NCBI GenBank assembly: GCA_965178125.1
Contig: OZ237742.1
Location: 1,302,001-1,366,000, forward strand
Origin: Bilabrum cf. latius
Taxonomy: Eukaryota
Length of the DNA: 64,000 nt
Direction of reading: 5' to 3'
The position numbers and the translations under genes are program-made. Each line of letters begins with the position of its first letter. Position 1 is the stretch's first letter. The notes under the pieces were generated by a model. The model was given only the letters and a program-made list of their open reading frames with translations. It searched no databases and was not told where the DNA came from. This document shows positions 1 through 64,000 of the stretch, one piece after another.

Positions 1-3000
1 CTGGGAGCAGTGCTGGGAGCTGGCAGGCCTGGGCATGGAGACGTCGGGCCGGGGGGTTGGTGGGAGCGTGCTCTGCGCGCGTGTGACGAGTGCGGGGTCT
101 GGAGCGCCATGCACCGATTGCTTGAGCTGGGTGGCTGGGGACTGTCACGGCGAAAGTTGAAAGCAATCGACTCGCCGAGCGGTGGGGGCAAGGGAGGGCG
201 CGCCCATTCTACCACTGCCGGTACTGTTGGCAGCGCGGGCCAGCCGGGCGCTGCCAACTCGGCGTCAATCCCCGAAGCCAAGCACGGCAGCCGAGGAGAG
301 CCCGCCTCGCCCCCCAGGGGTAGCTTGCGCCGCAGCAGCGGGAGGACGCCCAAGCGGTCCCCTCGCGCGCGGTCCGGGACTGGCAGCACCCCTTCCCCTT
401 CATCGTCCTCGTCTTCAAGCAGCGGCAGTAGTGGCACCCAGGGCACAGGGGCAGACACGGCCGGCAGCAACGGGTCCAAACCACCGGTGGATCGCGCGCC
501 TTCCCAGCAGCAGCTCCACGAGCTGGAGCCTAGTCCGGCAGAGACCGTGGCCATGCTGCGAAAAGGGCCCGCGCTAGGGGTGCTTCCTTTCTTTGGTCTG
601 TGCGCCGCGAGTGCGACCTGCCTGGGGCAGGCCCAGCAGCTGGCCGGGGTGCCTCGAGGACCCGGCTCCGAGGCGTTCCCCGGGCTGTTCTCCGTGCAGG
701 TGTGCTGGCCCGAGCTGCGAAGTGCAGAGGAGCAAGTAGCTCTGCTGGAAGTGGCCCGCGAGTTCGTGCTGGGGCGGGAGGGCATGGGGAAGAAACTGCC
801 GAGGGGCACCGAGCTGCAGGGCACCGAGCAGCAGGGCAATGGGGAGCTGCTGGGCGCGATTGGGGCTCAGTTGGACCGTGTGGCCGGGAAGATCCTCAGG
901 AGTGCAGTGCCTCAGGGGTGGGACGGGCGCGCCAGCGGGCCAGGAGCGTCCGTGGATCTTGCGGCCGGCCTTTGGGTCTCACCAGGCCATGGCTTTGGGA
1001 CAGGGCCAGGGACAGGGACAGGGACAGGTGCCGTGTCTGCCGCTCCCTTGGTTGACCGGCGCATGGTGAGGAGGAGGTATCGGGCGAGGCAGTGCCTGTC
1101 TCGGTGGGTGCACCGGAGGGCGCGCGGGCGGGGTGCATCAGCGACCCACGTTGTGGACTAGGGCCAGAGCCAGGATCAGGATCAGGGCCAGGGCTAGAGC
1201 CAGAGCACACCGCTGCTGCAGCCGTCGATCTCCAGCGATGTGGTCGAGCCACAGGAGGGCGACGAGGTCGATCGATCACACTCGATCTCGGCGGAGATGT
1301 CCTCGGACAGCGACGGCGTGGAGTCAGAGTCGGGGAGCGACGCGGATGCCCTTGAGGCGGACCAGGCCGACGACTCGGCCCGCCGCAGGTCCCTGCAGCT
1401 GGCGAGGGCCATGGCGCGGCGGCAGGCAGCCGAGTAGGCAGAGCAACGCAATGCGATGCACCCTTGGGTGCGAGCAGGTAGAGCCGCAGATACCGCCCAT
1501 CAAATCGGTGGAAGCGAGGATCCGCACACGCCGGACTCTCCGATGGGCAGTCTCGGGCTGCTAGACGCCGCCGGTGTGCTGGCCTCGCTGACCCCAGCGC
1601 GGGGGCACCGTCGTGCGATGCACCCGGGGGGTTCGTAGTCCTTGCAGCGGCCGCCGGGCATGCTCGGAGCCAAGCGGTCCAGGGAACAAGCCCTGGGGCT
1701 CGGCGGGGAGACAGAGGGGGCCGCACCCGTCAGGACACCGCCCCGGGGTCACGCCGGGCACGGCCCGGGGAACAGCCCTGGGTCCGGCAGGGCGGGCACA
1801 GGATCGTCTAGCTCCCTATCGATGAGCAGCCCTGCGCGAGGGGGGCGGGGGCCAGGGGGCCAGCGGCGGGGGGCGCAAGCAAAGGCCCGGGGCTCGCAGA
1901 CAGCGCCCCGCAGCAAGCTGGGCGCAGGCGCGGCCGTGGGCTCCACGGTGCAGCAGCTGCTCTCCCAGACCAGGGAACAGGAGTGGGAGTTCCGGGCCAG
2001 CCGCATCCCGCAGGCCAAGTTCGTGCATTTCCGCAGGCGCCGTGACGGCGAAGGCGCCGGCCGTCTGATCCTGAGGGTTAATCGTGCGCTCCGCCGGCAG
2101 GTCTTCCCGATGGAAGAGGAGGAGATCAAGCTGCAGAGGCAGAGAGAAAAGCAGATGCACGAGGAGGAGGAGGAGGGTCGAAAGGGCGCGGGCCAAGGGG
2201 TGGGGGCAGGCGTGCTGGGTTTGGATGGAGCGTCCGCGGATGGTGCGGCTGGCGGAGTTCTTGGACTTGAGCTTGGCACGGGGCTGGGTGGCCCGTCGGA
2301 GGTGCTGGGGTCCGGCGCGGGCGGGTTGATGCCGAGTCCAAGGGGTCGCGGGTCCGTGCTGGGTGACGAGGACGGCGACCCGGGCCGCGTGCGGGGCCAT
2401 GGCCGGGAGCGGTCCCAGTTGGAGGGAGACGCGACTGCCAGTCGGCTGGGAGCCGCATTCCGAGGGGGTCGCATGGGGGAACACGCGTCTGGCAGCACCA
2501 GCAGCAGCACACGTCCGTCGTCTGTGCGGTCCGTGCCTGTCCATGGGAGTCGGGCAGTGGCAGGCGGCCGCAGTGCGGCAGTGTTCGGCTCTAGCTCAGG
2601 CTCCAGATCTGGGTCCACCGCTGGTGGCTCGTTGTCGGCCCCCCGCAGGTCCAGGCAGCACCCGGGCCTGGGGCTCTTTAGGGAGGAAGGTTCGGATCAG
2701 AGCCAGAGCTAGGGGAAAGCGGGGGAGAGTGCAGCGCACGGCGGTGCACGGGAAGCCGGGGGGCTGCTTGAGCTGCTTAGTGCGGTTGCTGACGCTGCCT
2801 CTGCCTCCTCGCCCAAGGTGGCGGGGACTGGCGCTGCGGGGCAGGGAGTGCAGGGGCAGTTGGCACCCAGTGAGCAGTAGCAGTCGCAGTCGCAGCAGCA
2901 GTCGCAGCCGGTTGCGTCCTTCCGCTCAGGGCGTGCAGCACAGGTGAATCCGCACACGCCCAATGCAGATGCGGCACAGCAGCAGCACACGCTGCAGCCG

Positions 3001-3465
3001 CAGTCCCAAGGCAAAGACGGGTCAGCTCCGTGCCCGCCGCACACGGTCCGCGGGACACCGGTACTGGGGGCCAGGTCAGTGGCCAGCGGGACGATGCATC
3101 CCCAGGGCGGGGTAGAGGAAGGGGGCTTAGGATCCGCGCCTCGAGGCGGAGCACGGCGTGGCCCGCTCGTGCTCGGCCGCGCCCCTCATCAATCAGGAGG
3201 CGGTGCGATGGATGGCACCCCGGCAATGCAGGGTCTACTATCCCCGGGGTTGTCGATTGGAAGCGGGGCGCAGGACCGCGCCGGGGTCAGGAGCCGGGGC
3301 CGGGCTGCCAGTGGTGGCCTGGGCGAGCTGATGCTGGGCACACGGGGCTCTGAGCGCGAGACTGGGCTGGGGTCCGTGGGTGAGATGGAGGCAGAGGCAG
3401 AGGCAGTGGCAGACGGAAGGGGTGAGGCAGGGGGCGAGGCAGGAGGAGGCAGCAGGAGGAGGTGA
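1..3465 (+). CDS. 5'-partial large low-complexity protein of unknown function (TAG read as Gln)
   Basis: ORF-track fragments 10..1161, 1240..1437, 1456..1638, 1642..2712 and 2944..3465 share one frame. They are separated only by TAG (1159, 1195, 1435, 1636, 2710, 2878), and the frame ends at TGA 3463-3465. TAGs lie inside Gln-rich repeats (GGC CAG GGC TAG AGC CAG; CAG TAG CAG TCG CAG). Confidence 0.75.
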
Positions 3466-3697
3466 GGTTGGTGTAGCCTGGGCGGAGCTGCGGCCCGGAT
3501 AGCAGGCCAAGGAGCCTCGATGTGTAGCTGGCGGGCAGTCCGGGAGGGAGGTGCGAGAGTGGTCGGGGGGTCAGCACCGCGAGGAAGGCCAAAGTGGCCA
3601 TCCAAAGATGCGACATACTTCTAATGATTGTTTGAAGAGACGGCTTACCCGTAAACGAATAGAACCATGTTATCTTGCACGCTTTAACATACCGCCA

Positions 3698-5401
3698 TCA
3701 CAGCCCCGTCGCGCCTCCCATGGCTGCGGCCTGCTCCTCGTCCTCCTCCTGCAGCAGCACGCAGCCCTCTCCTGTCACACCCGCCGGCTCCACGATCATC
3801 CTACACGCCCGCTGGGCACACCCCGGATGCTGCAGCAGCCGCAGCACGCGCATGGGGCCGTCTGGCCTGCCGAGCGGGCCGGCCTGCGTGGGCATCCCGG
3901 GGCTGGGCACGGCCACAGGCCCCTGCACGATGGCCTGCCCACTGGGTTTGGCAGCCCCTGCTGCTGTTGCTACTGCTGCTGCTGCTGCCGGATCCTTGGT
4001 GCTTGGAGTGGTGCAGCCCTCATCTGGCTCTTTCAGCCAGGGCAGTCCCCCGCAGGGACCAAGGCAGGGGTCGTCCACCAGCCAGGGCGCTGGGCACACC
4101 GAGTTCGAGTGCTCTGGACCTGCGCCTGCGCTTGGGCCTGTGCTTGCCAATAGTTCCGTTGAGCCTGAAGTGGCAGATGATGTTGTTGTCCTCGCTCCAC
4201 TTCTATCCTTGGCGCTGCCCCCCTGTTCGTTGCGTTCCTCGTCCTATTGACTGTCCTATTGCTTGTCCTATTGTTTGTCCTATTGTTTGTCCTATTGATT
4301 GTCCTATTGTTTGTCCTATTGATTGTCCTATTGATTGGTACCAGAAGCTTCCGCTCCATCCGCAGGCAGCACCCCCAGCACCTCCACCATGGCCCCGCTG
4401 GGGTGCCAGGGAACACCTACGCCATCGGGTGCCTCTGCCCCCGCAGCCGCCGCCCGCTGCAGCTCAGAGGCGATGGCCAGCGCGGCCGCGTCCGCCCCCC
4501 CGGTGGAGTCCGCCCGCGTGAGGAGGAGCCGTACGGTGGGGCGGCAGCACCAGGCCAGGCCCAGGGCGGCCTTGCTCAGCGCTGCGGAACCTCCCGGCGC
4601 CGCGCTCCCCGCGTCCTCCTTTGCGACCACCGCGGTGGCCTGGTTGGTGACGAGGACGGGCAGGTTGTGCTCGTCGGCCAGCGCGAGGAGCTCCCTGGAC
4701 AGGAGGGCGAGGGCGTTGGCGCGGCGCCAGGCGGGGCCCGCGGTCTTGTCTCCTCGCGTCAGGGCCGCGACGCTGTCCAGGACCACGAGGCCCAGGCGGC
4801 GGGTGCGGGCGGCGGCGCGGAGGCGCCGGACGGCCTGCGTGGCCTCGGCGGGAGTGCTCGCTTGCAGGAGCAGGTGCGGAGACCACAACAGGGAAGCGTC
4901 ACCGCCGCCAGACTTTGAAGCTGCAGCTGGTTTGGATTGCCTGGGCTGCGCGCTCTCCACCCGTGGCCGTTTGCGCCCTGCATTTCGACCGCTCTCCACG
5001 ATTTCTGCATTCCACGCAGAGCAGACGCTTTGGCGCTGCCGCACAGACATGCACCTCCATCTTATTTCTGCCATCTGACGCAACCTCTTCAGCGGTGGGC
5101 GGCCCTCCGTGCAAACGTATGCCGCAGCGCTTGCCCTGCCTCCGGCTCCCCCTGGTAGAGCGCACTGCACCATCATGTGCAAGCAAAGCTGCGACTTCCC
5201 AGCACTTGCTGTGCCCGCTATTTCTGTAAGACAGCCATTTCTAAATCCTCCTCCAAGCGTTGCGTCAAGGGCTCTCGATCCGGTAGTTTGCCTTCCGACA
5301 GATTGGGCCGCTGCAGACAGTGACTGCCGCTAGGTGGCCTACTGGTATTCAGCTCGCAACAGATCTGCGCAGGAACTAATGGACACATCATTGCAAGACA
5401 T
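3698..5401 (-). CDS. XRCC3: Rad51-paralogue, XRCC3-like DNA repair protein (~567 aa, 10 in-frame TAG)
   Basis: Motifs: TTGSRALDATLGGG, Walker A EIAGTASAGKSQLC, AYVCTEGRPPLKRLRQM, Walker B LVVLDSVAAL, VLVTNQ, ALGLAW. The C-terminal strand MRVLRLLQHPGCAQRACRMIVEPAGVTG lies after 8 TAGs. ATG at 5401, TGA at 3698. Confidence 0.85.
4241..4336. repeat. 12-bp tandem repeat GTCCTATTGNNT x8 inside XRCC3; encodes (D-x-Q-TAG)n
   Basis: Eight consecutive units read directly. The minus strand reads GAC AAN CAA TAG. Confidence 0.95.
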
Positions 5402-5521
5402 ATTCTTGCGGTTTATATCCAATATATCTCGCGCTGTAGCGCACAAGCGAATGCAGCAGTTGTTCCGGTTCGTTCAAACACTTGCTCTCCCCCAGAAAGG
5501 ACCTCAGAACTGAGATTGAGC

Positions 5522-5815: not shown

Positions 5816-8532
5816 TCACTTGTCTTGTTCAGAAATCTTCGCTTCGATTCGCTCCACCAGGTCCGGCTTATTGCCAGAGATCTTAAGCCCCAGCCGCTTG
5901 CAGATCTCTTGCAGGACAGTCTTCGTGCGCTTCTTGAGCGTGTCGTTCGCGATTTCCTCAGCGACAGTGGCATCGTCCGGCACCTCCAGCCTCGCCTTCT
6001 TGGCCTTGGGCGCCCCGCCACCGCCCGCTGCCGAGGAGCCCCCGGAGCGGCCTCGCTTCTTGCTGCCCTTCTCGGCGGACATTCTCTCCGCCCGGAGCCC
6101 CACCGCGGCCTCAAAAGCCTGCATCTGCTTCTCCGCCGTGGCCCTGAAACCCTCCTCGTCGGGCATCGTCTCGTCGTCCTTCTCCTCGGTCCACGGCTTG
6201 CCCGCGCCACCCTCATCGCCATCGTCCCCGTCCTTTCCACCCACCCGCTCCCCAAGAGCCAGCGCGCGAAGGTACGCGTAGAACTTGCCGATCTTGGGCT
6301 TGCCCAGCTCCCGCGAGTGCCAGTCCTGCGTGCCCGCCTTGACGAGAGCCCGGGCCGCACCGACCTGCTCCACGGAGGCGCCTGTGGAGGCGGGGGGCTC
6401 GTACCTGGGCGTGGGCAGGTCGTCGGCGAAGGGAAGGGGCACTGCGAAGAGGCCGGGGGGCTGCAGCTGCGCCCCGTCCTCGTCCACCTGGGTCCAGGCG
6501 GGCAGCAGCGCCATGAACTTGGGCTCGTCGTTGGATCGCAGCACCACCCTCGCGATGCCCACCACGTCACGAGCGCGCATGGCCCGCATGAGGGCCAGCA
6601 GCGCCCGGCGACTGCCCTTCACGTCGCGCTCGAGGGGGTACAAAAAGTATGGCTCCCGCATGTTGTGCTGGTCCAGTAGCGCACTCCTGGGCTTGAACCC
6701 GAGCAGCTTGACACCGGGCACGTCGAACCTCTTGAGCGAGTTCATCTCCTGTCTCGTGAACTTGGCCCAGGCGCCTCCGATCTTCACCGCCTCGCGGACG
6801 TCGTACGGCTCCACCTTTTCGAGGGTCTGCGGGTGCTGGTAGTTGACCTTGGAGACCACGCGGACTGCCCTGAGCTCGCCTGCACCTGCATCGCCTGAGG
6901 CAGACCCACTGGCTGACGAGGACGACGAGGATGACGACGAGGACGATGATGAGGTCGCCGCCCCCAGGTCCCCGTCGATGGCCAGCGCGCCCGCGCCCCT
7001 CTGCCCTTCCCCGGCGCGGAGCGTTACCCTGACCGTAGTGGGCGGCTTGGTGTCGTAGATGGGCAGGTACACGCCGACACCCAGCTCTACGCCGGGCCCC
7101 AGCTGCAGCGACAGACGCGCGTAGGTCCTCCTGCGGAACATGCGGCGCCGCACAGCCTCCAGCAAAGCCTCAAATCCCCTGCTGCCGGCTACTGCGTGCA
7201 GGTAGGCTCCGTCAGCCGCCACCGCCGCGGCGCCCTCGTCCCCGTCCTCGTCATCACCAGCACCCTCACCATCCATGCCTCCGACTCCATCGGAAGCCTG
7301 CGTGCCCCCCTGCCCTTGCGTCGCCGCTGTGCCACCCATCGAGCTGCTGCCGTAGGCAGACGCAGCACCCGAGCCAGCGAAAGAACCAGCTCCAGAGGCT
7401 GCTGGCAGGCCACCTGCAGAGGCCCCACTGGCGGCCCGAGGGGCCCCCGTCACGGGGTCGTGCGTCTCATGCATCGCGTGGTGGTGCACCACCCGCCACC
7501 AAAACTTGCTGCCGTCGAAGCCAGGAGCACCTGCCCCCGCCCCAGCACCCGCCCCCGCACCCGCACCAGCACCAGGACCGTCCTCAGGCTCGGCCACCAG
7601 CCCGTACACGGACACCTCGTCTCCCTGCTGCCTCAGCTCCTGCGCCCGTCGCGCCACCGCCAGCTGTGCAGCTGCATCTCCGTTGCACGGGTCATCGTCA
7701 CATGTGTATATGAACACCCGCCGTGCGTCCCGCGAGGTGCTTTGCCCGCTCTTGCCCACGGCGGCAGGGGCCACCCTCTGGAATTGCTCCGCGGCGCACC
7801 ACAGAGAGTACTCGAGAGGAAACGGGGTGTCGGCTGTGCGGGGGCCCACAGTCTCTGCGAGATTTGGCGGACCGCCATCGCCATCGCCAGCGGGCCCTGC
7901 ATTTCTTGCCTGGAACGTGGCGCGGGCAGAGGCCTCGACGCTCTCCACGGCGCGGATTGCAGCGATGCTCGGCGGAGCAAGCGGCACTAGCGACCGGATC
8001 CCATCAAACTGATCGAGCGTGAACCTATCCACGCCAGCTAGTAGAACTCCAACGCGGTCCTTCGAGGAGGATGAGAAGATAATCTGCCGCTTCAGCTGGT
8101 CCAGCACGCAGCCCATCGTCGCTTGCAAGCATGACTGCGTTGGAATTACGAGTATGACGGAAGTATTGGTGCATATATCTAGTATTTGTTGCAATTTGTT
8201 GATGCATCATGAATTGCGAAGCCTTACTTTGCTGTCATCCTCATCCCCATCACTGTCCTCGTCCTCATCCGACTCTTCGTCTGCTGGAGCAGGGGCGAGG
8301 GCTCGCAGCATACTTTCTCTGCAGTCAGCAATGATTAGTAGATTGTCGCGTGACGTAACTTCGCCAACAGCCTGCGGTGGAGGGCGTCTTGCATAGGAAC
8401 GAAGGCCCGGGATATTTGCAAGAACTGCAAGTGCTCGCCCAAGGCGCAAAGTCGTCTCACGGCCCCTTTGTCCTCAGCAGCAGCCTACTCGACGGGCACG
8501 TCATCCTAGAAAAACTCTCCCCAATCTGACAT
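5816..8532 (-). CDS. XRCC6: Ku70 (vWA + Ku core + SAP), ~844 aa; exons 8532-8461, 8371-8228, 8134-5816
   Basis: N-terminus MSDWGEFF(TAG)DD...SRDNLLIIADCRESM. Further motifs: KDRVGVLL, RRVFIYTCDDDP, KLLGFKP, YFLYPLE, LPFADD, and C-terminal SAP LKKRTKTVLQEICKRLGLKISGNKPDLVERI. Phase-0 GT-AG introns at 8372-8460 and 8135-8227. Two TAGs in exon 1. Confidence 0.92.
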
Positions 8533-8672
8533 GCCGTGGGTCAGTTTAGTTCTGTCCTAATGTTGACACAATTTGTGCGAGCAGAATTCGAAACTCCGAG
8601 TCGAACCGGAGCGGTCTCAAACTGTGCCAATCGTCTGGTGATACGCACAAGCTAGCCAATTATTTTAGTGAA

Positions 8673-10193
8673 ATGATCATACTTTTACTCTTAAGCGCAC
8701 TGCTTGGGCTTTGCGTGGGAAGATCGGAGGTGTGCGGGAGCAAATCGTGCTCGGGGTAGGCGTGTCCTATGGACGACCCTTTCACCGCCGAGTATGGGTC
8801 GAGCGCAGTGTATCCTTGGGCATCTGGCATGGTCAAGTGGAGTTGCGTATATTCGCTCCGGGACTTTCCCCATGGCTCCACCGCGGACCGACTGGAGGCA
8901 GCGCTAGCTGCTGCCTCTAATGCGAGCGGTGGCGGAGTCGTGTATGTACCAGCGGGAATGTACCAGCTAGACAGAACGGTACAAGTGCCATCAAACGTTG
9001 CAATTCGAGGCAATCCTACACATGATCGAGCCAAGCATGGGAAAGAGCCTGGGCCGTTGGCTCCAAAGACCTTGTTTGAGTGCCCAGATCGGTAGCACTT
9101 GGGGTTCTTCAACGCCGACCCACTTGCAGCCAACATCTCCCTGCTTCACTTGGACCTAGTTGGATGTGCAATCATGCTATGGCCCGCGCTTGACACCCCT
9201 GGCTTCAAGGGGTGGGTGAACGCGAGCAAGGTGCTGGGAATGGGACGCAACAAGGCAGTGCTCGGGATCCGGTCAGCCGACGTGAACTACATGTAGACGT
9301 CCGCATCCGGTAACCATTTCCCGTGGCCATACGGCACCGCCGTTGCGGTGTACAGCGACGCGAACGCCCTGGTTGGAAACGTGCTGGTGCGGGCAAGCAC
9401 CAAGCAGGTGCCTGAGACGCTCGAGCTACTGTACAAGGGAGGCGGTAAGGCGGGGCCAGGGCCGTACAAGGTCAAGACAACGTATCCGTACGACAACCGC
9501 TATGGAATCGACGTCAACCAGATCCTGCTCGGCACGGTGGCTAGGCAATCGTGCCCCGGGTGGGGAGCCACCGATCCGAGGTGCTTCCCGCACCAGTACA
9601 GCCCCGGGGTGACCATCCGCGACTCGTGGGTGCACCAGAACGGGCGGGGCGGCGTGGTGTTCTCCGGCGCAGGAGATGGCCGGGTCATCGGAAGCGGCCC
9701 GCAGGTGCGTAACAACCACGTGGAGGTGCAGGCCGGGACGGTCTTCTACACGAGGGACGGCGTGCACTTCGCCACCGGGTCGGACACCAACGAGAACCGA
9801 GGGTACAACGTGCAGGGGTACGCGAGCAACATCACGGGGTGCTCGGGGCACGTCAACTCGTAGGCGCTCGTGTGCCCCGCGCCGGGAGACCCCAGCAAGC
9901 TGTGCCCCTGGCACACTGTGGATGGCGAAGGCATCCTGCAGCAGGCGTTCGAGTCGGGGTCGGGGTACCGGCACTCGTGGAGTGGCAACGACCTCACCGG
10001 GGGTGGGGACCCCAGCGGCGCCCCCGTGTGGTTCTATGACCTGGTGGATGTCGTGGACTGCGTGATCGAGGACAACAAGGTGAACCCGCAGGCTTACTTG
10101 GGCGTGCTTTGCCACAGCTACTGCGACAAGGTGCAGGGGGTGGTGTGCAAAGGCAACTCCAAGCCCGGCAACCAACCCAAACAACAGCTGTGA
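8673..10193 (+). CDS. secreted pectin-lyase-fold (beta-helix) protein, ~506 aa, 4 in-frame TAG
   Basis: Signal peptide MIILLLLSALLGLCVG and motif ALAAASNASGGGVVYVPAGMYQLDRTVQVPSNVAIRG (Pectate_lyase_3-like N-terminus). Fragments 8769, 9099, 9348 and 9870 share one frame, joined across TAGs at 8757, 9093, 9294 and 9861. Ends at TGA. Confidence 0.75.
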
Positions 10194-14408: not shown

Positions 14409-14576
14409 CAATTATAGTTTCAGTCCAAGCATGCCTGTCGCTGGATCTCCTGATGCATCGGAGACAATCATCATCGAACCGATTTGCGGACCGTTGGATT
14501 CTTGGGCCGGCGTGATGATTCCGGTTCCGTTCTGAACAAGCCAGCATGCAACTTGGAAGCAGTTCTTTGCATTCTG

Positions 14577-16976: not shown

Positions 16977-17074
16977 TATGAGGACCTGTGAAATCGTCGT
17001 TGATCGGCACGCGACGGGTCAGAAAGAGAGGGAAGCCAAATACGATTGGATCGGCTTGAGTCCGCGGGTGGCGC

Positions 17075-18502: not shown

Positions 18503-18642
18503 GTTGGAAAAGTCTGCTTATGATTTGCGGCTAGATCCTCGAGAATCGCGGCTGATCTTGATGACGAATGCCAGCCGCGGATCGGATCAACGGAATCAGA
18601 CCTGTGGACCGCATTCACATTCAGTATAATGGGATGCAAGCG

Positions 18643-55168: not shown

Positions 55169-56129
55169 AACATGCAGCGCCACGCCTCTTTGCTCCCAGG
55201 CCCCCCGTGCGCCTGCACGCACCCTGGGTGCAGCCCATAGGAAGCATTCGCCATGCGGTAGATGTACGTGAATAGCTCTCGGTAGTAGCGCTGTCCCCCC
55301 ACGGTCTCAGCGTCCAGGAAGAACCCCGCATCGGGGAACACCTTGAATCGCCCTATACTAGTAGAGCTCGTGCTGGCAGAGCTCCCTCCCGCCCGCACCA
55401 AGCCACTGCCAGTGCCAGTGACGCGCAGCTCTCCGTCGATCTGGGCTCGCACTGCGTCTGCGTGCAGGATCGCAGCCATGCCGCCCGCGCTACAGCCACC
55501 AACCAGGATATTCGCCTTCTTCCCGGATGGCGAGGCCGCTCCTAGGCCGTGTCGGTGCACCAGATCTCGAATCACCGCGCTGCGGATGGCCGCGCCGCGC
55601 ATGTACATCGCTGTCCCGTTCGGACCGAGAACCGTCCCCTCTCGGGCTGATGAAAAACTGCTGCCGTCACAATACTTTATGTAGACTGATGAGTAGTTGC
55701 AGAGGAAATTCATGTCGCAATCGTCCTGGAACGTCGCAAAGTTGATCGTGGTCGTTTGCGGCCAATTCGTCGATGAACCAAGATCCGTGCGAGATCGCTG
55801 CTCGCAGTAGGTTTCATTAAAGCACCACCCTCCCCCTTGGAAATGAAGAATAAAGTTAGTCTTGTCATTGCCCCTGCCCTCTCTGAAGTAGTATCCCTGC
55901 GGTGTTCGGATGCCAAGAAATATCGCTATATGCGGTCAAGATGACACCAGTGCCGCGCAATAACGAAAACAACGCTCAATTTGATACTTTATCGACTACT
56001 AACGGGTGGGCTTCCATCAAGGCACTTTGCTCCTGGTGCGTGGACGAGTTGCAGTTGGGAAACTCCCTGGGCTCCGAGGACCAATTTCTGGCAAATAGAA
56101 AGGAATAGGAATAATCTAGATATCTTCAT
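54691..56129 (-). CDS. pectin acetylesterase / Notum family esterase (~443 aa); exons 56129-56004, 55896-54691
   Basis: Signal peptide, AKCLDGSPP|GYYFR, HFQGGGWC, YIKYCDGSSFS, catalytic GGCSAGG, DAGFFLD, CMFPQY, HSCWMHCQ. Intron 55897-56003. Confidence 0.92.
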
Positions 56130-56644
56130 TATACTTAGGGTCTTGGAGGCGATAATGTATTCCCGTAGTGCACCTGCGGAAGGGCAAACCAATTGGGTCT
56201 CGCGGAATTTATTGTTGCGTGCTCTTTTGATAATCAACGCGAAAGAGTGGCCCGCCTGCTTGCTTCATGGCACAGACAAGAACTCTTCAGCCCTGTCAGT
56301 GCTGCTTATTTAAAATTGTAAGATTGTTTTATCGCTTGATCCTGGGGTTCGTACCAAGACTAGGGCTAAATTGGCGTAATTGCGCGTTGAGGGGTTGATG
56401 CGTGTCTGACCTCGCCACTATTCGTCCCCCCTGTGGTTCTAGTTGGGTTTTTCATCCAGGTTGAACCGATTCATTATGTCAATCGCGTACTTATATTCAA
56501 CATGATGCTGTGTTTGATCCCTTGAATCCAGTGATTAGGACTGCTTTCGTTGCGGTGCGGTGCCATGTGCGGTGGTGCACGCGCAGGACCAACCGAATTT
56601 CTGACCACATATCATGATCCGCCCCGCAGATTAGCTAGGGGGTA

Positions 56645-57517
56645 ATGTCATCGTTGGGTGGCCTCTTGGGCGCGGCTGCAGCCAGCGTCCCCTTGGTTCG
56701 TTTAATCAATTCATTGTGCCTCGAGCCGTTTCAAGTGCCGGTCGAGAAACGGATCACCCCTGCCAGAGACTGGGGAAAGGAGATTTTGCCCGGTAGAACA
56801 ATAGAAGATCTTCCACGAGGTCTTCCGACGGAAGAAAAGACCGAGAGAGTGCGCACGCTGGAGGGTCCCATGCTCTCGGACGATGTTTTTGCCGAATTGA
56901 TTGCTCGTGCTGAGGCACTGGAAGCCGACGCTCCTCGAATGAATTTGCCCCCTCACAAGCAAGGGGCTACAATGGATGGTCCGACTCTGTATGATCGGCG
57001 GGAGCCATTCGTGGACCTGTACCTCTCGAAGGAGTGGCAGGACACGGTGAGCCACGTGCTGGGCGCCAAGGTGGAGCCCATCACCATGACGCACCCGAGC
57101 ACCTGCTCGCTGCTCTACTACACCCAGGAGGGGGATCATATCGCGTGGCACTACGACCACAACATGTTCCAGGGGGACTACTTCACCGTGCTGGTGCCAC
57201 TCGTCAACGAGGGCGAGACGGACAACGGTCTCAGCGCCAGCCGATTCTGCTATAAGGAGAGGCAGCCCATGGGCCTGCACGCGCTGGGCATGGGCAAGAC
57301 GCATGCTGTGGAGCTGCAGCCGAACTCTATGGTAGCCTTCGAGGGTCCCAAGCTGTGGCACCGCGCGGAGAAGGTGCAGAAGGGAGATAGGCGGATCATC
57401 TGGTCCATGGTGTATGCCACGAGCAGCAAGCAGCTGGGCTACAGGGAAATCCTGCGGAGGGTCAAGGACATGACCTACATTGGACTCAGGGCTCTCACCA
57501 GGGGGAAGGCCCTGTGA
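56645..57517 (+). CDS. 2OG-Fe(II) oxygenase superfamily protein
   Basis: LLYYTQEGDHIAWHYD (HxD), FTVLVPL, AFEGPKLWHRA (distal His), RRIIWSM (2OG-binding Arg). Strong GC3 bias. Ends at TGA. Confidence 0.8.
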   Translation: MSSLGGLLGAAAASVPLVRLINSLCLEPFQVPVEKRITPARDWGKEILPGRTIEDLPRGLPTEEKTERVRTLEGPMLSDDVFAELIARAEALEADAPRMNLPPHKQGATMDGPTLYDRREPFVDLYLSKEWQDTVSHVLGAKVEPITMTHPSTCSLLYYTQEGDHIAWHYDHNMFQGDYFTVLVPLVNEGETDNGLSASRFCYKERQPMGLHALGMGKTHAVELQPNSMVAFEGPKLWHRAEKVQKGDRRIIWSMVYATSSKQLGYREILRRVKDMTYIGLRALTRGKAL

Positions 57518-58331: not shown

Positions 58332-61300
58332 TCAGCCGTGACCAGGAGCGCGGACACGCCAAGGCGCTTGCCACTTGCTCCAAGGCAAAGTCGCACCACC
58401 TGCAGCAGCAGGCTCACCCTGTGGTCCTCCCCTGTGCGTTTGCTTGGCCCAGTCTGGCCCTGTGAGCCTTTCCAGACGCACGGCCGCCCTTTGCCACTCC
58501 TCCACGGAGGCGGGCCTTGCCGCTGCCGCTTGCTGTTTCTCCCTGTGCCTCTCTCGAGCCCGGGCGGCCATAGCGTCGTGCTTACTTTTCGCAGCAGACT
58601 CCTCTTCTGCCTCTGGCTCTGCCAGGGCCGGGCCTTGCCCCGCCTCGGCCTTGCCTGCATCAAGCAGACTGTCCCCTACATCCGACTCCAGCGAGGGCAG
58701 CCGCAAAGAGGCCCTCGGTGCCTCCTTGATGGCCGCGGCGGGCCCGACTTCAACCACACTGGCACTGGCAGCGCCCCGTGAGGCATGCCCCGCGCGCGAC
58801 CCGTGGGAGGGGCCAGCTGCACCCTCCTCAACCCCCGCCTCAAGCTGCATGCAGCGCATTGCCTCGCAGAAGAGGGCCCCTGCATGCGCCGCCAGCCCCA
58901 GGGCGGCCTCGCGCCTGGCCCTGTCGCGCACCAGCGGGGCCAGCTTGGCCAGTGCGGAGGGAAGGGGGGCGGGCAGCACTCGGTGGAAGCCTCCCCGCCG
59001 GAGCATGCGTGCAGACTCGCGGCGGGCCACCCGCGCGATGGGCTCGGGGAGGCTCAGCCCCAGCAGCGGCTCCTCCACTGCAGAGACGGGCGCACCGGAC
59101 TTGCCTCTCCGACTGCGCGCCGCGGCGGCCAGCATCCTGGCGGCGGCGGCGTCCATGGCGGCACTGGCGCTGCCCGGCCATGCGGGGTGCTAGGGGCTCT
59201 TGCTGGTCCCCTAGTCTCCTGCAGCACGCCCCCTGGGGACAGATCCCCCACCACTCTCCTGCCCCTGCCCCTGCCCCTGCCCCTGCGCTCGGATGCAGGC
59301 GAGGTTGAGCGCATCCGCGACCACCCTGCTCTTGACGTGCGCGTCCACGGGCTCGTGCACGGCCAGGGAGGGGGCCAAGTTGCACTCCAACAGCCACGGC
59401 TGGAGGTCGGCGTCAAGCAGCACGTCCAGCCCCAGCAGCTGGAAGCAGCCCTGGGCAGGCATGTCCAGCTCTGACTCATGCTCATGCTCATGCTCCGGCT
59501 CTGATCTGCGTTCAAGGCAGTCATTTGCTCTGTGCGAGAGAGACTGCAGTCCGCTTCCAGAGCGCTTGCCTCCCCAAGTCTCTGACTTGCCCTTGCTAGG
59601 CCGCGCACCCTTCCCGCTCGGCGATGACCCGTCCGCCTCTCCTCTTCCCCCCCCCTTGTTCCCTCGCTGCCTCCCGCGCACTGGCTGCAGCAGCGGGGAC
59701 GGCTACATGCCGCCGGGGCCCAGCGTTGGCATCAGACCGCCCGGTCGTCCTCCCTTACCCCCGCGCCTGCTCCTGCTCCTGCCCCTGCCCTTGCCCGCAG
59801 GCTGCAGCAGGCCGGACGGACCCGCTACAGAGGCGAACGCACTCCCCGCCCGCCTCTCGTGCGCCGCCATGGCAGTGCTCACCGCGCTCTCCGAGGCCAG
59901 CACGGCTTTTGCGCACACGTCCGCCACCCTGGTCCACACCTGGTCCCAGTCCACCTCGGGGCGGTCGCCCCTGAGCCTCTGCTTGAGGGCGGGCAGGCTC
60001 CACTTGAGGCCCTGGCTGTAGCTCGCAGACTCGCGGGGCGGGTCTGCCTGGGCTTGCGCGCCTGTCGCCTCGTCTTCGGGCGCGTCACCAGTCTGTCTGC
60101 TGGACGGTCCAGGGCCAGTGTTTCCCTCATGGGCACTGGCAGCCTTCCTCGACAGGCCAGTGTTTCCCTCATGGGCACTGGCAGCCTTCCTCGACAGGCC
60201 AGTGTTTCCCTCATGGGCACTGGCAGCCTTCCTCGACAGGCCAGTGTTTCCCTCATGGGCACTGGCAGCCTTCCTCGACAGGCCAGTGTTTCCCTCATGG
60301 GCACTGGCAGCCTTCCTCGACAGGCCAGTGTTTCCCTCATGGGCACTGGCAGCCTTCCTCGACAGGCTCGCGTTGGTTAGGTGCCTCAGCCTGTCCCTGA
60401 GACCCACGGGCGATGCGTCGTAGGGCAGAGGGGCCAGCCGGGCCAGGCCTTCCTCGTGCAGGTAGGCCACCGGGGGGTCGTACGAGACCACCAGCACGTA
60501 CAGTCTCAGGTCAAACTTCCGGCCGTCCACCAGGAGCGGCTGCCAAACGTACCGACTCAACGTGAAGGTGCTGCCCGCCTCTTCGTACCCGTCCTTGCCC
60601 CTTCGCTTCTTGCCTCTAGAGGAGGACTGGCTGTGGCTCCGCACCCCGTGAGTATTCCTCCTCCCACCCCGTCCACGTCTATGGCCAGCCCTCTCTCTCT
60701 TCGTCTCGGCCTCCGCCCTCCCGATCGTGCTGCTGAGAGACAGGCTCTGCAGGCGATCGTCGAGGCCCCGCTGGCCCATCGGCATGGACTGGCGACCAGT
60801 CCCGGTCCCAGCCCAGCTGCCATGGTGAGAAGCGAGGGCCGGCGGGCCGTGCCCATTTCCTCGCCTGCTGGTACCATCGCTGCGCCGCGAACTCATGCCC
60901 TGGCCGCTGGCAGCCTCGGGGCGGCCACTGGAGTTGCTTTGGCTCTAACTTCGGCCAAGCGGCGGCCTGCCGCCACGGGCGACATAGCTCGACCCCCCGC
61001 TTGCATGGCTGGTGGTCAGGCCTCTCCTATCGCCTGCTAGCAGTCGCTTTGCCCGAGCTGCCTCGAACGCATCGCACGCCCTCTGCACTGCGCTCTCGGC
61101 GACAGAAATAGCCTCCGCCCGGAGAACAGGGCCTGCTCCAGTCGACGCATCGCCCGGGATACGACCCGCCACCGCGACCGTGCCTTCTTGCACGGCTGGT
61201 ATCACCTCAGGTGGGCGCTCCAGCAGGCCAGCCCAGTCTCCAGCGCGCTCGGCTCCATCCTGTCCACCGCGCTCCGACGCATCCACTTGGACGGAACCGG

Positions 61301-62744
61301 CGCCACGATCCGGCCGACTGCCTGCAGCGGCGGGGGCTGATCTGCCCCTGTGGCTCCCCCGAGTTTCCTACGACTGGCCCCCGCCCCCTGCCTCGATCGG
61401 CTGGAACTGGTCCAGGGCACGCATGGGCCGCCCGTCCCTGTCGAAAATCTCCACGCGGATGCCGCGCCCCTGGCTGCTGCCGCTGGGCTTCACGATCCAC
61501 GGCTGCATGGGGTCCCGCCTGCACGCATGCCCAAAGGCCCCAGCATCGGCAGGCAGCACAAACGTCTCGGGAAGGAACGGAAAAGCCCCGGTGCCAGTTC
61601 CAGTCCCAGCTCCGGCACCTGCCCCCGTGCGCATGCGCATGCCCGGTCCCGCCACCCCCCTCTTGACAGCCAGCTTTGCGAGCCGCTGGAAGGACCGGGC
61701 CATGGAGTCCTTGCGGGTCACCGAGGTGCTGCTGGGGAACTGGGCCACCGAGAGGGCGGGCGGGGCCTCCGATGCATCGCAGGAGGGAAGTGTGACGAGT
61801 GCATCGGGGGCCTGGGTGGGACGAGGAGGAGAAGGAGCAGCAGCAGCACCGCTTGGCCCAATACCGTGGGCTTGAGCTGCCTTGTTACCAGCAGAGCGCC
61901 CAGTAGGCATCGACGGGTGGCGGCTGCCCGCACCCCTTGCCGGCTGCATGGACTACTGTCGCGCAGCCGACTGGTGCATGGCCCGCGCCGCCACAGCCCC
62001 CTGGAAGACCCCCGAGGGGAGGGAGCGGCTGGCCCACAGCACGGTGCACGGGGCATCCTGATCCTGATCCTGATCCTGATCCTGATCCTGATCCAGAACT
62101 GCTGGTTGCGGGGCACTGGGGGCTGCATCCGGGTCCTGGAATAGCGGGGTGATGAGACCTGAAGGCTTGTTCGGCCCTGTACCGACAGCTTCCATCGGCA
62201 GTGCCTTTGGCTCGCTCCCAAGTCCAGGCAGCACCCGCGCTCCGGCCCGTCGCTCCCTCGCGGCTGCGCGCTGGCGACTGCGGCTGCCGGCACCGATCTA
62301 GCCTGAAGACTTCAACGATCCGTTTGTCTACGCATTGTGAGCAGCCATCATCGCAGGGTGAGGCTTGAGACCAGCCTGAGCGAACGTCATGTGAACCACG
62401 CGAGCCGCTGGTCCCACCACGCAGTATGAACCCGACGGCGTTCCAGTAGCCGAGGGAGGTTTCGCACGCGCATCAATAAGAGCGAATGCGGGCACAGGAG
62501 CAAAAGTGATCAGGCCGGAGCAGCGCATAGCAAGCTACTTGGTGTAACAAGACTTGTGCTGACTCTCGATGCTTGCTGCGCAGGCTTCAGCGCGAGATGG
62601 CTCCCGACTGGGGCGCGTGTCGCCATCGATATGGTCCATGGGTATAACTGCAGCGCCAAACGCAACAACTGGCTCCTGCTTGCTCTCTTCAGACCGGCCC
62701 AAAGACTGCCGTGCACCACGCAGCACTGACGAAACAGAGCTCAT
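58332..62744 (-). CDS. tubulin-tyrosine-ligase-like (TTLL4/5-type glutamylase) protein, ~1470 aa, with many in-frame TAG; start uncertain
   Basis: FPSSTSVTRKDSM, FLPETFVLP, WIVKPSGSSQGRGI, then TAGs, SRYVWQPLLVDGRKFDLRLYVLVVSYDP...EEGLARLA, HLTNAS, GLKWSL, then TAG, CFQLLGLDVLLDADLQPWLLECNLAPSL. Eight ORF fragments share one frame. TGA at 58332. Confidence 0.88.
60113..60366. repeat. 42-bp coding tandem repeat x6 (GLSRKAASAHEGNT) in the TTL domain
   Basis: Unit GGCCAGTGTTTCCCTCATGGGCACTGGCAGCCTTCCTCGACA. Confidence 0.95.
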
Positions 62745-63000
62745 TCGGGACGCTGGGACTGCCTCGAGTTGTTCACGCAAAAAGTATGCGCATGGCGACA
62801 GTCCTGACTAGAATATGACAGTTTGTGGCTAGCAATTCGAAGAGGTGCGATTTCAACCGTCATTAGCAGGTGTGTGATGAGTGACTATAGGTGGTGCTTC
62901 CGATTGGCGGAAAGACGCCTATTCTCAACAGTAGCACACATTGTTGCCTCGGTTAACAACATAATCATATTTTTCTACTATTTTGGACGCTTGAAGAGAA

Positions 63001-64000
63001 ATGGCGAAGCAGTTGAACTGGGATGACTTGGGTAAGACCAGCTTTACTACTCAAGGGCCGTGGCAAGCTTGCGTTTGAACCATGAGCCCCTACAGATACC
63101 CCCATCCCTTCTTTACCTCGCAGATAAAAACAAGTTTTATGTGTACAGTCCAATGGTTTTCTTCATGGTCCGCTTGGTCAACCACCCTGGTGAGACTTGT
63201 CACGATGAGCACATGGTCCGCCTCCAAGTATAGCTTCCGTACGTTGGCGTCCATCTGAACCCGAGCACGAACACAGTGAGGAATTTTAACGATTAACGTA
63301 CTTCATTTCGCAGCTACATTGGTAAAGACGCGACTGCAGATGCAGAAAGAACGCGTAGCTGGGGGTCTAGGTGCTAGGTAGTACCGGGGCTCGTGGCACG
63401 CGGTTTAGTCGATCGTGAGAGAGGAGGGATTTCGAGGTCTTTGGAAAGGTTTCGGGACGAACTCGCTTAACCTGGCAGTAGGACAGGTGTACATTACAAT
63501 CTTCGAATACCTGAAGACCCCGCGGGTGTTCGGCAGCAGCGTACCGGAAGAAGCTCGCACTGCGATGGCTGCGTGCACAGCCGTGATGACGGCGTAGACA
63601 CTGGCAAATCCCATTGATATCCTTGCCCAGAGACTCATGGTAGAGCGTGGGGATGGCCGCAGCACCGCAGGAAATGCTCAGGGCGCTGCAGGGGAGTCTG
63701 CCAGCAAGACGGCGGGCAAGGGTGCTGGTGCCTCGGCCTCCAGCAGCACGCGCGGCATGCACACGATGGCAGGAGAGTGGGCGGGCAATTCAAGGCAACA
63801 AGGTGCCTCTGTACCTCGGGGATACAGCCGGGCAGGGGCTCTTGCTGCACGGGCCGCTGGATCTGCAGGGGTAAGCACGGGCCGGTGGGCCTGGTCCGCG
63901 GCTGTCTCTGGCGGTGTGACGAGTGCGAGGAGAGCTGCCAGGCGCGCGGCGGGGAGCTGGCGCCGATGGCTGTCCAACGGAGAGCCGGGGGAGGGCGCGA
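63001..64000 (+). CDS. SLC25A44: mitochondrial carrier SLC25A44-like, 3'-partial; exons 63001-63031, 63124-63189, 63314->64000
   Basis: LNWDDLDKNKFYV, HPATLVKTRLQMQ, EEGFRGLWKGFGTN, GQVYITIFE, MTA(TAG)TLANPIDILAQRLMV. GT-AG introns at 63032-63123 and 63190-63313. TAGs at 63379, 63406 and 63595. Confidence 0.85.

What the first reader, a model, noticed from the sequence alone, without database searches (positions are those of the whole stretch)
1..64000. Non-canonical nuclear genetic code: UAG is a sense codon (Gln)
Seen in sequence: in at least 12 genes on both strands, ORF fragments stay in one frame and are separated only by TAG, dozens of times in total. Essential motifs lie downstream of TAGs: the hydrolase Ser/Asp/His, the TTL ATP-grasp motifs, the XRCC3 Walker A and last strands, the DUF2817 C-terminus and the JHY domain. 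TAG sits in CAG runs (1159-1203, 2875-2904, 26174-26194). Established: UAG-only reassignment, uncoupled from UAA, is rare in nuclear genomes. I recall it in the fornicate Iotanema (Gln), an uncultured rhizarian (Leu) and some ciliates; it corresponds to NCBI table 15. Inference: this GC-rich, apparently non-ciliate protist may be an independent and possibly undescribed origin.
Basis: partly seen in the sequence, partly recalled or inferred. Interest (0 to 1): 0.97.

Follow-up and report, generated by a model that had tools for sequence, protein, structure and literature searches.

The report
UAG read as glutamine, nuclear genes
In this GC-rich protist DNA the usual stop codon TAG sits inside the reading frames of most genes and is most likely read as glutamine, a rare change to the nuclear genetic code.

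Summary
In 16 reading frames (16,963 codons, both strands) there are 110 in-frame TAG but no TAA or TGA. All 15 frames that end inside the window end in TGA. One frame of 5,813 codons holds 48 TAG. Pfam blocks of DUF2817, TTL, JHY and Rad51 lie on both sides of TAGs.

Public-run contigs that splice out four ~90-nt GT..AG introns carry 11 of the TAGs unchanged.

Glutamine is the best reading. One TAG falls in a column with Q in 51 of 53 aligned homologues. A 96%-identical relative has Q at 2 of 2 comparable TAGs. In a 64-75%-identical metagenomic orthologue, 3 of 3 TAGs in conserved blocks align to CAG or CAA of the window. An internal gene duplicate shows TAG against CAG.

TAA is never in frame, so it is probably not a sense codon. 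It is also never a terminator here, so its role is open.

tRNA-Gln(CUA), eRF1 and the organism's lineage could not be examined because no genome is held. This is a new member of a known kind (UAG=Gln only, as in Iotanema and some ciliates).

The parts
27891..45332 (-). Frame of 5,813 codons for a giant membrane protein. It holds 48 in-frame TAG and no TAA or TGA, and ends in TGA. It contains an internal tandem duplicate of about 805 codons (codons 2939-3743 against 3753-4557).
   Evidence: The two copies differ at 57 of 805 codons, 40 of them synonymous. Three TAG pairs are shared. One TAG (codon 3714) stands against CAG (codon 4528). No Pfam family was found.
8655..10193 (+). Secreted pectate-lyase-fold protein (PF12708-like) with 4 in-frame TAG at 8757, 9093, 9294 and 9861.
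   Evidence: The TAG at 9861 falls in a column with Q in 51 of 53 aligned residues. The 96%-identical relative P0002 has Q at the TAGs 9294 and 9861. All 4 TAG lie inside a 1,580-nt contig of run X5 (8645-10224) with no differences.
17075..18517 (-). Alpha/beta hydrolase with 3 in-frame TAG at 18248, 17999 and 17309.
   Evidence: The column of the TAG at 17309 reads Q46/S23/A23/K13 among 120 homologues. An X5 contig (17015-18572) covers the whole gene with no differences.
14577..17018 (-). DUF2817 protein with 3 in-frame TAG at codons 642, 807 and 812 of 813.
   Evidence: The Pfam profile is split across the TAG at codon 642. The last two TAG lie 6 and 1 codons before the TGA.
58332..62852 (-). 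Tubulin-tyrosine-ligase-like protein. It has 11 TAG in the frame, 9 of them after the first ATG.
   Evidence: Conserved TTL blocks lie on both sides of the TAGs at codons 495, 636 and 1050.
24083..26833 (-). JHY-domain protein with 11 in-frame TAG. One (26192-26194) heads a run of six CAG.
3698..5473 (-). Rad51/XRCC3-like protein with 10 in-frame TAG. Two lie between the start Met and Walker A. Eight lie in a 12-nt repeat (GAC AAN CAA TAG) at 4244-4330.
1..3465 (+). Low-complexity frame, open at the 5' end, with 6 in-frame TAG. The TAGs at 1159 and 1195 occupy the CAG position of an (x-CAG)n dipeptide repeat. The TAG at 2878 sits in a CAG/TCG run.
10293..14411 (-). Frame of 1,372 codons with no Pfam family and 5 in-frame TAG.
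   Evidence: Four of the five TAG lie inside listed contigs of X5, X7 or X8 with no differences.
19973..24007 (+). Large pectate-lyase-fold protein with 3 TAG in the frame, 2 of them after the first ATG.
   Evidence: The TAG at 21209 lies inside an X6 contig with no differences.
63280..63999 (+). Mitochondrial carrier, cut off by the window end, with 3 in-frame TAG.
   Evidence: The column of the first TAG holds Q, K or R in solved carriers.
45414..46499 (-). RCC1-repeat frame with 2 in-frame TAG. It is part of a tandem array that runs to about 48443.
   Evidence: In sister repeats these TAG stand against W or against Y/S, so this array says nothing on the amino acid.
5816..8206 (-). Ku70 with a SAP domain, free of TAG. 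Its upstream exons are joined across introns at about 8135-8227 and 8371-8459.
   Evidence: Joints with GT..AG ends on the gene strand are seen in contigs of X5, X7 and X8.
18643..19916 (-). WD40 (Sec13/Seh1-like) gene, free of TAG, with introns at about 19615-19704 and 19822-19916.
54691..55935 (-). Pectin acetylesterase (PAE), free of TAG, used as a probe. Its Gln codons at residues 33 (CAA), 272 (CAG) and 321 (CAA) stand against TAG in the metagenomic orthologue (L001, L002).
56618..57517 (+). 2OG-Fe(II) oxygenase-like frame that ends in TGA. Its single TAG lies before the first ATG.

Best explanation
This is nuclear DNA of a compact, GC-rich (about 62%) eukaryote with few introns. Its translation system reads UAG as a sense codon, most likely glutamine. 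UGA ends every gene seen. UAA is not used as a sense codon.

Shown here:
- TAG lies inside conserved coding frames.
- TAG is kept in spliced transcript contigs.
- TAG aligns to Gln in homologues and close relatives.
- TAG accounts for about 13% of Gln-type codons (110 TAG, 555 CAG, 187 CAA).
- A diverged relative uses TAG in the same way.

Inferred from what is established for other UAG or UAR reassignments:
- A tRNA-Gln with anticodon CUA, derived from a normal tRNA-Gln, decodes UAG.
- eRF1 has lost recognition of the G in the third position of UAG, as proposed for the GTS-motif change in Iotanema (PMC9161772, passages read).
- New TAG codons arise by C-to-T change of CAG, which is then synonymous.
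For: Frames. 110 TAG against 0 TGA and 0 TAA in 16,963 in-frame codons; off-frame counts are 565, 1042 and 177. One frame has 5,813 codons with 48 TAG. Pfam and PDB blocks lie on both sides of TAGs in DUF2817, TTL, JHY and Rad51/XRCC3.

Selection. The two copies of the 805-codon internal duplicate differ at 57 codons, 40 of them synonymous. They share 3 TAG, so the TAG-bearing frame is under purifying selection.

RNA. Contigs of runs X5, X7 and X8 (two studies) join across four 89-95-nt GT..AG segments on the gene strand. The same runs give contigs with 0 other letters over 11 TAG codons in three genes. One contig spans a whole hydrolase gene plus 55-60 nt on each side. No other letters were listed over the 20 kb laid.

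Gln.
- The PL1 column is Q in 51 of 53 aligned residues.
- P0002 (96% identical) has Q at 2 of 2 comparable TAG.
- The hydrolase column has Q as the plurality, 46 of 120.
- Summed log-odds over the 5 usable columns are +8.6 bits for Q; the next best is A at -0.7.
- In L001/L002 (64-75% identical), 3 of 3 TAG in conserved blocks align to CAG, CAA and CAA of the window.
- The internal duplicate shows TAG against CAG.
- P0182 (71% identical) has Q at its one aligned TAG position.
- TAG occupies the CAG position of CAG repeats.

Stops. 15 of 15 terminators are TGA. The metagenomic orthologue also ends in TGA.
Against: Only 5 homologue columns could be scored, and one of them carries most of the weight. 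Three of the five are variable columns where Q is a minority or nearly absent: A12/E11/Q7, H13/Y11/N7/Q5, and P26/A23/E18/D16 with Q1.

Against short fragments of relatives of the giant protein (34-71% identity), 17 aligned residues opposite TAG were R4, S3, Q2, L2, T2, A1, I1, N1 and M1, mostly in poorly conserved stretches. Two relatives have L at one TAG position.

In L001 one TAG aligns to V in a variable stretch. In the RCC1 array TAG stands against W or against Y/S.

The run kinds are guesses: none is on record as RNA, and the tool rated X5 'probably DNA'. That the contigs are RNA is my inference from the spliced joints.

No tRNA gene lies in the window and no genome is held, so tRNA-Gln(CUA) and eRF1 are untested.
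Confidence: 0.85

Rival explanations
1. Both UAA and UAG are reassigned to Gln (NCBI table 6 type, as in ulvophytes, oxymonads, hexamitids and Amoeboaphelidium). TAA is merely rare here because the genome is GC-rich.
For: TGA is the only terminator seen, 15 of 15, which is what a UAR=Gln code predicts. TAA is rare everywhere in the window: 167 TAA trinucleotides against 427 expected from base composition.
Against: There are 0 TAA against 110 TAG in frame. A-ending Gln codons are not avoided (CAA 187, CAG 555), so about 37 TAA would be expected. TAA occurs as the in-frame stop just upstream of 4 of 13 frames. It is common outside frames: 177 in off-frame positions of the same DNA.
Confidence: 0.06
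2. UAG is ambiguous. It is read as Gln inside genes but still ends translation at some gene ends (context-dependent, as in Condylostoma or karyorelict ciliates).
For: The DUF2817 frame has TAG 6 codons and 1 codon before its TGA, so this protein could end at TAG. By construction my frames read through any terminal TAG.
Against: Where homologues or Pfam reach the C-terminus (hydrolase, PL1, JHY, the last TTL block), conserved sequence continues after the last TAG. Transcript-like contigs end 31-60 nt after the TGA.
Confidence: 0.05
3. UAG is a sense codon but stands for another residue, such as Leu (rhizarian exLh, some ciliates), Ser (Scotinosphaera), Glu, Lys or Tyr.
For: In weakly conserved parts of the giant protein, relatives show R, S, L or T opposite TAG, and two relatives have L at one site. 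In one hydrolase column S and A are each half as common as Q.
Against: Summed log-odds over 5 columns are Q +8.6, A -0.7, S -2.6, K -2.7, E -6.2, L -14.2 and Y -13.5 bits. Among relatives of 57% identity or more, plus the internal duplicate, 8 of 10 comparisons give Q.
Confidence: 0.03
4. TAG is not translated. The TAGs would reflect pseudogenes, in-frame introns, RNA editing of UAG to CAG, or sequencing error.
For: Real introns exist in the window. 18 of the 30 TAGs counted in frames within the laid 20 kb are not inside the contig pieces that the tool listed; it printed only part of its table.
Against: The four real introns are 89-95 nt, and each holds TGA or TAA in at least one frame. The TAG-bearing stretches hold neither in frame over thousands of codons. 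Spliced contigs keep TAG with no other letters. Synonymous changes outnumber others 40 to 17 between the duplicate copies. If C-to-T error were the cause, CGA (169 in frame) and CAA (185) would also give TGA and TAA, yet none is seen. An independent metagenome relative also has in-frame TAG.
Confidence: 0.01

Closest known systems
UAG=Gln with UAA kept as stop: Iotanema spirale (Fornicata), Protocruzia tuzeti and some phyllopharyngean ciliates. NCBI table 15 gives the same translation. Sources: PMC5304391 and PMC11687900, passages read.
   Same: UAG is read as Gln while UAA is not a sense codon. UGA is a stop. TAG is frequent inside conserved genes.
   Different: This is a GC-rich (about 62%) compact genome with ~90-nt GT..AG introns, a mitochondrial carrier gene, Ku70 and ciliary genes. 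That does not fit an AT-rich ciliate (recalled). It probably does not fit the gecko-gut fornicate either, in which no mitochondrion-related organelle was seen (PMC9161772, passages). Here UAA was not seen as a terminator (0 of 15); in Iotanema UAA is reported as a stop. eRF1 and tRNA could not be compared.
UAR=Gln codes (NCBI table 6): ulvophycean green algae, oxymonads, hexamitids, many ciliates and Amoeboaphelidium protococcarum. Sources: PMC5304391, PMC6299283 and PMC11687900, passages read.
   Same: Stop-to-Gln reassignment. TGA is the only terminator observed. Non-ciliate protists are among the known cases.
   Different: TAA is absent from 16,963 in-frame codons. Amoeboaphelidium genomes are about 40% GC (PMC10608142, Table 1) against about 62% here, so this is not that aphelid.
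Other UAG-only reassignments: rhizarian exLh (Leu), phyllopharyngean ciliates (Leu) and Scotinosphaera (Ser). Sources: PMC5304391 and PMC11687900, passages read.
   Same: UAG and UAA have different meanings.
   Different: The amino acid here is Gln, not Leu or Ser.

Membership tests
UAG=Gln-only nuclear code (table 15 type) | In-frame UAG inside conserved protein-coding genes | tested here: met
   110 TAG in 16 frames. Pfam and PDB blocks lie on both sides of TAGs.
UAG=Gln-only nuclear code (table 15 type) | UAG positions correspond to Gln in homologues | tested here: met
   Q in 51 of 53 aligned residues in one column. Q is the plurality in another. Q scores +8.6 bits over 5 columns. 8 of 10 comparisons with close relatives or the internal duplicate give Q. 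The sample is small.
UAG=Gln-only nuclear code (table 15 type) | UAA is not a sense codon | tested here: met
   0 TAA in 16,963 in-frame codons; about 37 would be expected from the CAA:CAG ratio. This covers one 64-kb window only.
UAG=Gln-only nuclear code (table 15 type) | UAA is used as a terminator | tested here: inconclusive
   0 of 15 terminators are TAA; all 15 are TGA. At the off-frame TAA:TGA ratio (177:1042), 0 of 15 has a chance of about 0.1.
UAG=Gln-only nuclear code (table 15 type) | UAG is kept in the mature mRNA, neither spliced out nor edited | tested here: met
   11 TAG lie inside contigs of runs that also carry spliced joints, with 0 other letters. That the runs are RNA is inferred; it is not on record.
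UAG=Gln-only nuclear code (table 15 type) | A tRNA-Gln with anticodon CUA | not testable with these tools
   There is no tRNA gene in the window, no Rfam match and no genome held.
UAG=Gln-only nuclear code (table 15 type) | An eRF1 domain-1 change that abolishes UAG recognition | not testable with these tools
   eRF1 is not in the window, and no genome is held.
UAR=Gln code (table 6 type) | In-frame UAA as well as UAG | tested here: not met
   0 TAA against 110 TAG in frame.
Ambiguous stop/sense codes (Condylostoma or karyorelict type) | The same codon also terminates at gene ends | tested here: inconclusive
   Only DUF2817 has TAG within 6 codons of its TGA. Other genes continue conserved sequence past their last TAG.

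The most novel reading that the evidence does not exclude
This is an independent, so far undescribed origin of UAG-to-Gln reassignment, uncoupled from UAA, in a poorly sampled non-ciliate eukaryote clade. The clade has at least two diverged members: the window's organism and the metagenomic relative at 64-75% protein identity. In it UGA may be the only working terminator and UAA may be left essentially unused.
Probability: 0.5. Interest if true: 0.8.

Novelty: new member of a known kind. Interest (0 to 1): 0.72.

Why it matters
UAA and UAG nearly always change meaning together in nuclear codes. The few cases where UAG alone is reassigned are the natural experiments for asking how eRF1 and tRNAs can tell the two codons apart. 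Most known cases are ciliates, uncultured cells or transcriptome-only organisms.

This lineage has a compact, GC-rich, intron-poor genome. Assembled DNA and transcript-like data already exist in several public runs, and a diverged relative shares the code. It would therefore be a tractable non-ciliate system.

It also matters for annotation. Under the standard code most genes of this genome would be called as fragments.

Tried and rejected
Whole genome. None is held, so tRNA-Gln(CUA), eRF1, rRNA and genome-wide stop usage could not be examined.

RNA genes. There are no tRNA genes and no Rfam matches in the window.

Sequencing runs. The look-up of sequencing runs reported 'no RNA holder listed'. 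Within the laid 20 kb, 18 of the 30 TAGs counted in frames, among them the XRCC3-like, DUF2817 and two PL2 ones, are not inside the contig pieces that read laying listed. It printed only part of its table, so nothing follows from that.

Homologue searches that failed or gave little:
- The third homologue search (giant protein, residues 500-2900, shorter lengths) found nothing.
- The first metagenome scan with a slice of the giant protein found no relative.
- The representative search with that slice gave only 10 short fragments.
- Solved carrier structures align Q, K or R opposite the first TAG of the mitochondrial carrier, which is too few sequences to decide.
- The two N-terminal TAG of the XRCC3-like gene lie outside the part that aligns to solved structures.

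Q neighbours. TAG has a Q neighbour in 22 of 110 cases, against 78 of 742 for Q itself. Eight of the 22 come from one repeat, so I give this little weight.

Lineage:
- Two ESM Atlas searches (Ku70, PAE) gave only broad eukaryotic clusters.
- Cluster look-ups gave no names for the close relatives. The nearest named PL1 homologue is a sponge protein at 44% identity.
- I considered an aphelid (Amoeboaphelidium, UAR=Gln, an algal parasite) and rejected it. Its genomes are about 40% GC (PMC10608142, Table 1) against about 62% here.
- I rejected ciliates on GC content (recalled).

Literature. Six searches found no report of UAG=Gln in a GC-rich non-ciliate. Supplementary files were not consulted.

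Full report
WHAT THE WINDOW IS. The 64 kb are GC-rich (0.56-0.69 in 4-kb steps) and densely coding on both strands. Pfam scans of stop-to-stop frames, with TAG read as X, found these genes:
- a Rad51/XRCC3-like gene (3698-5473, minus strand)
- Ku70 with a SAP domain (5816-8206, minus)
- two pectate-lyase-fold proteins (8655-10193 and 19973-24007, plus)
- DUF2817 (14577-17018, minus)
- an alpha/beta hydrolase (17075-18517, minus)
- a WD40 protein (18643-19701, minus)
- a JHY-domain protein (24083-26833, minus)
- RCC1 repeats (45414-48443, minus)
- a pectin acetylesterase (54691-55935, minus)
- a 2OG-Fe(II) oxygenase-like frame (56618-57517, plus)
- a TTL-family ligase (58332-62852, minus)
- a mitochondrial carrier cut by the window end (63280-63999, plus)

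There are also three long frames without a family, one of them 5,813 codons long. This is a eukaryotic nuclear gene set. No tRNA gene and no Rfam family lie in the window. No whole genome is held.

THE OBSERVATION. With TAG as sense the longest frames are 5813, 1506, 1372, 1344 and 1154 codons. Under the standard code the longest is 931. Making TAA sense instead gives 931, and making TGA sense gives 1394.

In the 16 frames listed above there are 110 in-frame TAG, 0 TGA and 0 TAA among 16,963 codons. The five other frames of the same DNA hold 565 TAG, 1042 TGA and 177 TAA in 84,751 codons. At that rate about 244 in-frame TGA+TAA would be expected. The chance that all 110 in-frame stops are TAG is about 10^-55. 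The frames were picked as TGA/TAA-free, so the test is partly circular, but domain continuity is independent evidence:
- DUF2817 profile positions 1-120 lie before, and 274-341 lie after, the TAG at codon 642. The C-terminal piece alone scores 29.2 bits against a cut-off of 23.
- TTL blocks at residues 369-468, 760-848 and 1134-1184 are in one frame, with TAG at 495, 636 and 1050 between them.
- The JHY match 711-914 spans the TAG at 793.
- The Rad51 core aligns from residue 34 of a query that begins at the only upstream Met and holds TAG at residues 21 and 24.

106 of the 110 TAG lie after the first ATG of their frame.
- At 1159-1197 every second codon of an (x-CAG)n repeat is CAG, except two that are TAG.
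- At 26192 a TAG heads six CAG.
- At 4244-4330 a 12-nt unit, GAC AAN CAA TAG, is repeated eight times.

IS TAG STILL THERE IN THE RNA? Four public runs were laid on 3600-23599. None is on record as RNA, and the tool rated X5 'probably DNA'. Even so, contigs of X5, X7 and X8 (two studies) join across four segments of 89-95 nt: 8135-8227, 8371-8459, 19615-19704 and 19822-19916. These have GT..AG ends on the minus strand, which is the strand of Ku70 and the WD40 gene. I therefore take these contigs to be spliced transcripts; this is an inference.

Each of these introns holds TGA or TAA in at least one frame. The same runs give contigs with 0 other letters and 0 gaps over 11 TAG codons:
- four in PL1 (X5, 8645-10224)
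- four in the 1,372-codon frame (X5, X7, X8)
- three in the hydrolase (X5, 17015-18572, the whole gene plus 55-60 nt on each side; X7)

One more TAG lies in an X6 contig. The table of other letters for the whole 20 kb was empty. The other 18 of the 30 TAGs counted in that stretch are not inside the pieces the tool printed. Its table was cut, so nothing follows from that. Splicing-out and editing of TAG are thus contradicted where they could be checked.

WHICH AMINO ACID?

(a) PL1 against 55 homologues (56 were found; I dropped the weakest, P0057). The TAG at 9861 falls in a column with Q 51, H 1, N 1 and 2 gaps. Two other TAG columns are variable (A12/E11/Q7..., H13/Y11/N7/Q5...). One lies in a signal-peptide-proximal insert. 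The 96%-identical P0002 has Q at both TAG it spans.

(b) Hydrolase against the best 120 of 146 homologues. One column reads Q46/S23/A23/K13. One is variable (P26/A23/E18/D16, with Q1). One lies in an insert.

(c) Log-odds summed over the 5 usable columns are Q +8.6 bits, A -0.7, S -2.6, K -2.7 and L -14.2.

(d) A metagenome scan with the TAG-free pectin acetylesterase found two short contigs, L001 and L002, at 64-75% identity and 48-54% GC. Their orthologue holds five in-frame TAG. The three in conserved blocks align to CAA (residue 33), CAG (272) and CAA (321) of the window. One aligns to V in a variable stretch and one lies in an insert. That orthologue also ends in TGA.

(e) The 805-codon internal duplicate of the giant gene differs at 57 codons, 40 synonymous. 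It shares three TAG and has one TAG against CAG.

(f) Evidence that does not favour Q. Fragments of relatives of the giant protein (34-71% identity) show R4, S3, Q2, L2, T2, A1, I1, N1 and M1 opposite TAG, mostly in weakly conserved stretches. The most similar fragment (71%) has Q. In the RCC1 array TAG stands against W or against Y/S. Solved carrier structures show Q, K or R opposite one TAG.

Taken together, Gln is clearly the best reading, but it rests on few columns.

UAA AND TERMINATION. TAA never occurs in frame. With CAA:CAG at 187:555, about 37 TAA would be expected beside 110 TAG if both meant Gln. TAA is present off frame (177) and as the in-frame stop just upstream of four frames. 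So TAA is very unlikely to be a sense codon.

All 15 frames that end in the window end in TGA. At the off-frame TAA:TGA ratio, 0 of 15 has a chance of about 0.1. Whether UAA works as a stop or is simply unused is therefore open.

One gene, DUF2817, has TAG 6 codons and 1 codon before its TGA. Occasional termination at TAG therefore cannot be excluded for that gene.

MECHANISM (inferred). By analogy with other stop-to-Gln codes, a tRNA-Gln(CUA) should decode UAG, and eRF1 should have lost UAG recognition. In Iotanema a T-to-G change in the eRF1 GTS motif has been proposed to do this (PMC9161772, passages; PMC5304391, passages). New TAG codons would arise from CAG by a C-to-T change. The TAG/CAG differences between paralogues and close relatives fit this. 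Neither molecule could be looked at here.

WHO IS IT? This is not resolved. The features are:
- about 62% GC
- intergenic spacers of roughly 55-350 nt
- transcript-like contigs that extend only 10-60 nt beyond the frame
- few introns, each about 90 nt
- ciliary genes (TTL family, JHY) and a mitochondrial carrier
- proteins full of low-complexity inserts

Named homologues are distant. The best named PL1 homologue is a sponge protein at 44% identity. The hydrolase's nearest homologues carry bacterial names at 35-38% identity. The only close relatives are unnamed contigs. Two Atlas searches gave no lineage.

An aphelid was considered and rejected on GC content: Amoeboaphelidium is about 40% GC (PMC10608142, Table 1). 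Ciliates are unlikely on GC content, which I recall rather than tested. Iotanema is a gecko-gut anaerobe without a visible mitochondrion-related organelle (PMC9161772, passages). This organism has a mitochondrial carrier. This speaks against Iotanema but does not prove it.

COMPARISON AND NOVELTY. UAG=Gln with UAA not reassigned is known from Iotanema, Protocruzia tuzeti and some phyllopharyngean ciliates. UAG-only changes to Leu or Ser are known from a rhizarian, ciliates and Scotinosphaera (PMC11687900 and PMC5304391, passages). The kind of code is therefore known.

What may be new is the lineage. Six full-text searches found no report of this code in a GC-rich non-ciliate. That covers the held library only, and no supplements were seen. 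The in-frame TAGs of the 64-75%-identical metagenomic relative show that the code is shared by more than one organism. I rate this a new member of a known kind and of high interest to people who study genetic-code evolution. An independent origin remains unproven.

Noticed in passing
window 27891-45332 (minus strand), codons 2939-3743 against 3753-4557: The giant 5,813-codon gene holds a recent tandem duplicate of about 805 codons: 57 codon differences, 40 of them synonymous. Its middle part has GGA/GGG-type repeats that recall polymorphic-membrane-protein beta-helices (a resemblance I recall, not tested). Its C-terminal part is Cys-rich with several hydrophobic stretches. No Pfam family was found.
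   Followed up: partly
window 45414-48443 (minus strand): A tandem array of RCC1-like units lies just upstream of the giant gene, whose own N-terminus also looks RCC1-like. The stretches between blades may be introns or non-coding. TAG, TGG and TAC/TCC alternate between copies.
   Followed up: no
window 49800-50918 (plus strand) and 52708-53454 (minus strand), with 51800-52100 between: Two inverted frames with no Pfam family share a clearly similar stretch (FVVL.TG.LG.GA ... LARIRR.R.G ... S.. AQVR.WAR). They flank a long run of about 20 copies of a five-residue proline-, alanine- and threonine-rich repeat. The surrounding DNA has lower GC (0.55-0.59). This may be a mobile element or a local inverted duplication.
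   Followed up: no
L001 1105-1344: In the metagenomic relative, the pectin acetylesterase is followed after about 250 nt by an ORF whose start (MAYSSKHASRVDALRARRAARQKK) matches the N-terminus of the window's JHY gene. That gene lies 28 kb from the acetylesterase in the window, so gene order differs between the two.
   Followed up: no
window 17075-18517 (minus strand): Where the nearest homologues of the alpha/beta hydrolase carry names, those names are bacterial (Chloroflexota, Actinomycetota and others) at 35-38% identity. The eukaryotic gene carries two acidic or low-complexity inserts. It may be of bacterial origin.
   Followed up: no
window 10293-14411, 58332-62852 and 3698-5473 (minus strand): In-frame tandem peptide repeats sit inside genes: ANERVHSMLALQVG x5, LSRKAASAHEGNTG x6, and a 4-residue unit containing TAG x8. 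Many Gly/Ala/Thr/Ser microsatellite-like inserts split conserved domains.
   Followed up: no
window 8013-8654: The long plus-strand frame 8013-10193 overlaps the 5' exons and introns of Ku70 on the other strand. The real PL1 gene seems to start near 8673 (a signal-peptide-like MIILLLLSALLG). The transcript-like contig starts at 8645. The two TAG upstream of that point are therefore not coding.
   Followed up: partly
whole window: Genes are packed very tightly. Convergent stops at 24007 and 24083 are 75 nt apart. Other spacers are 56-340 nt. Transcript-like contigs extend only 10-60 nt beyond the frames.
   Followed up: partly
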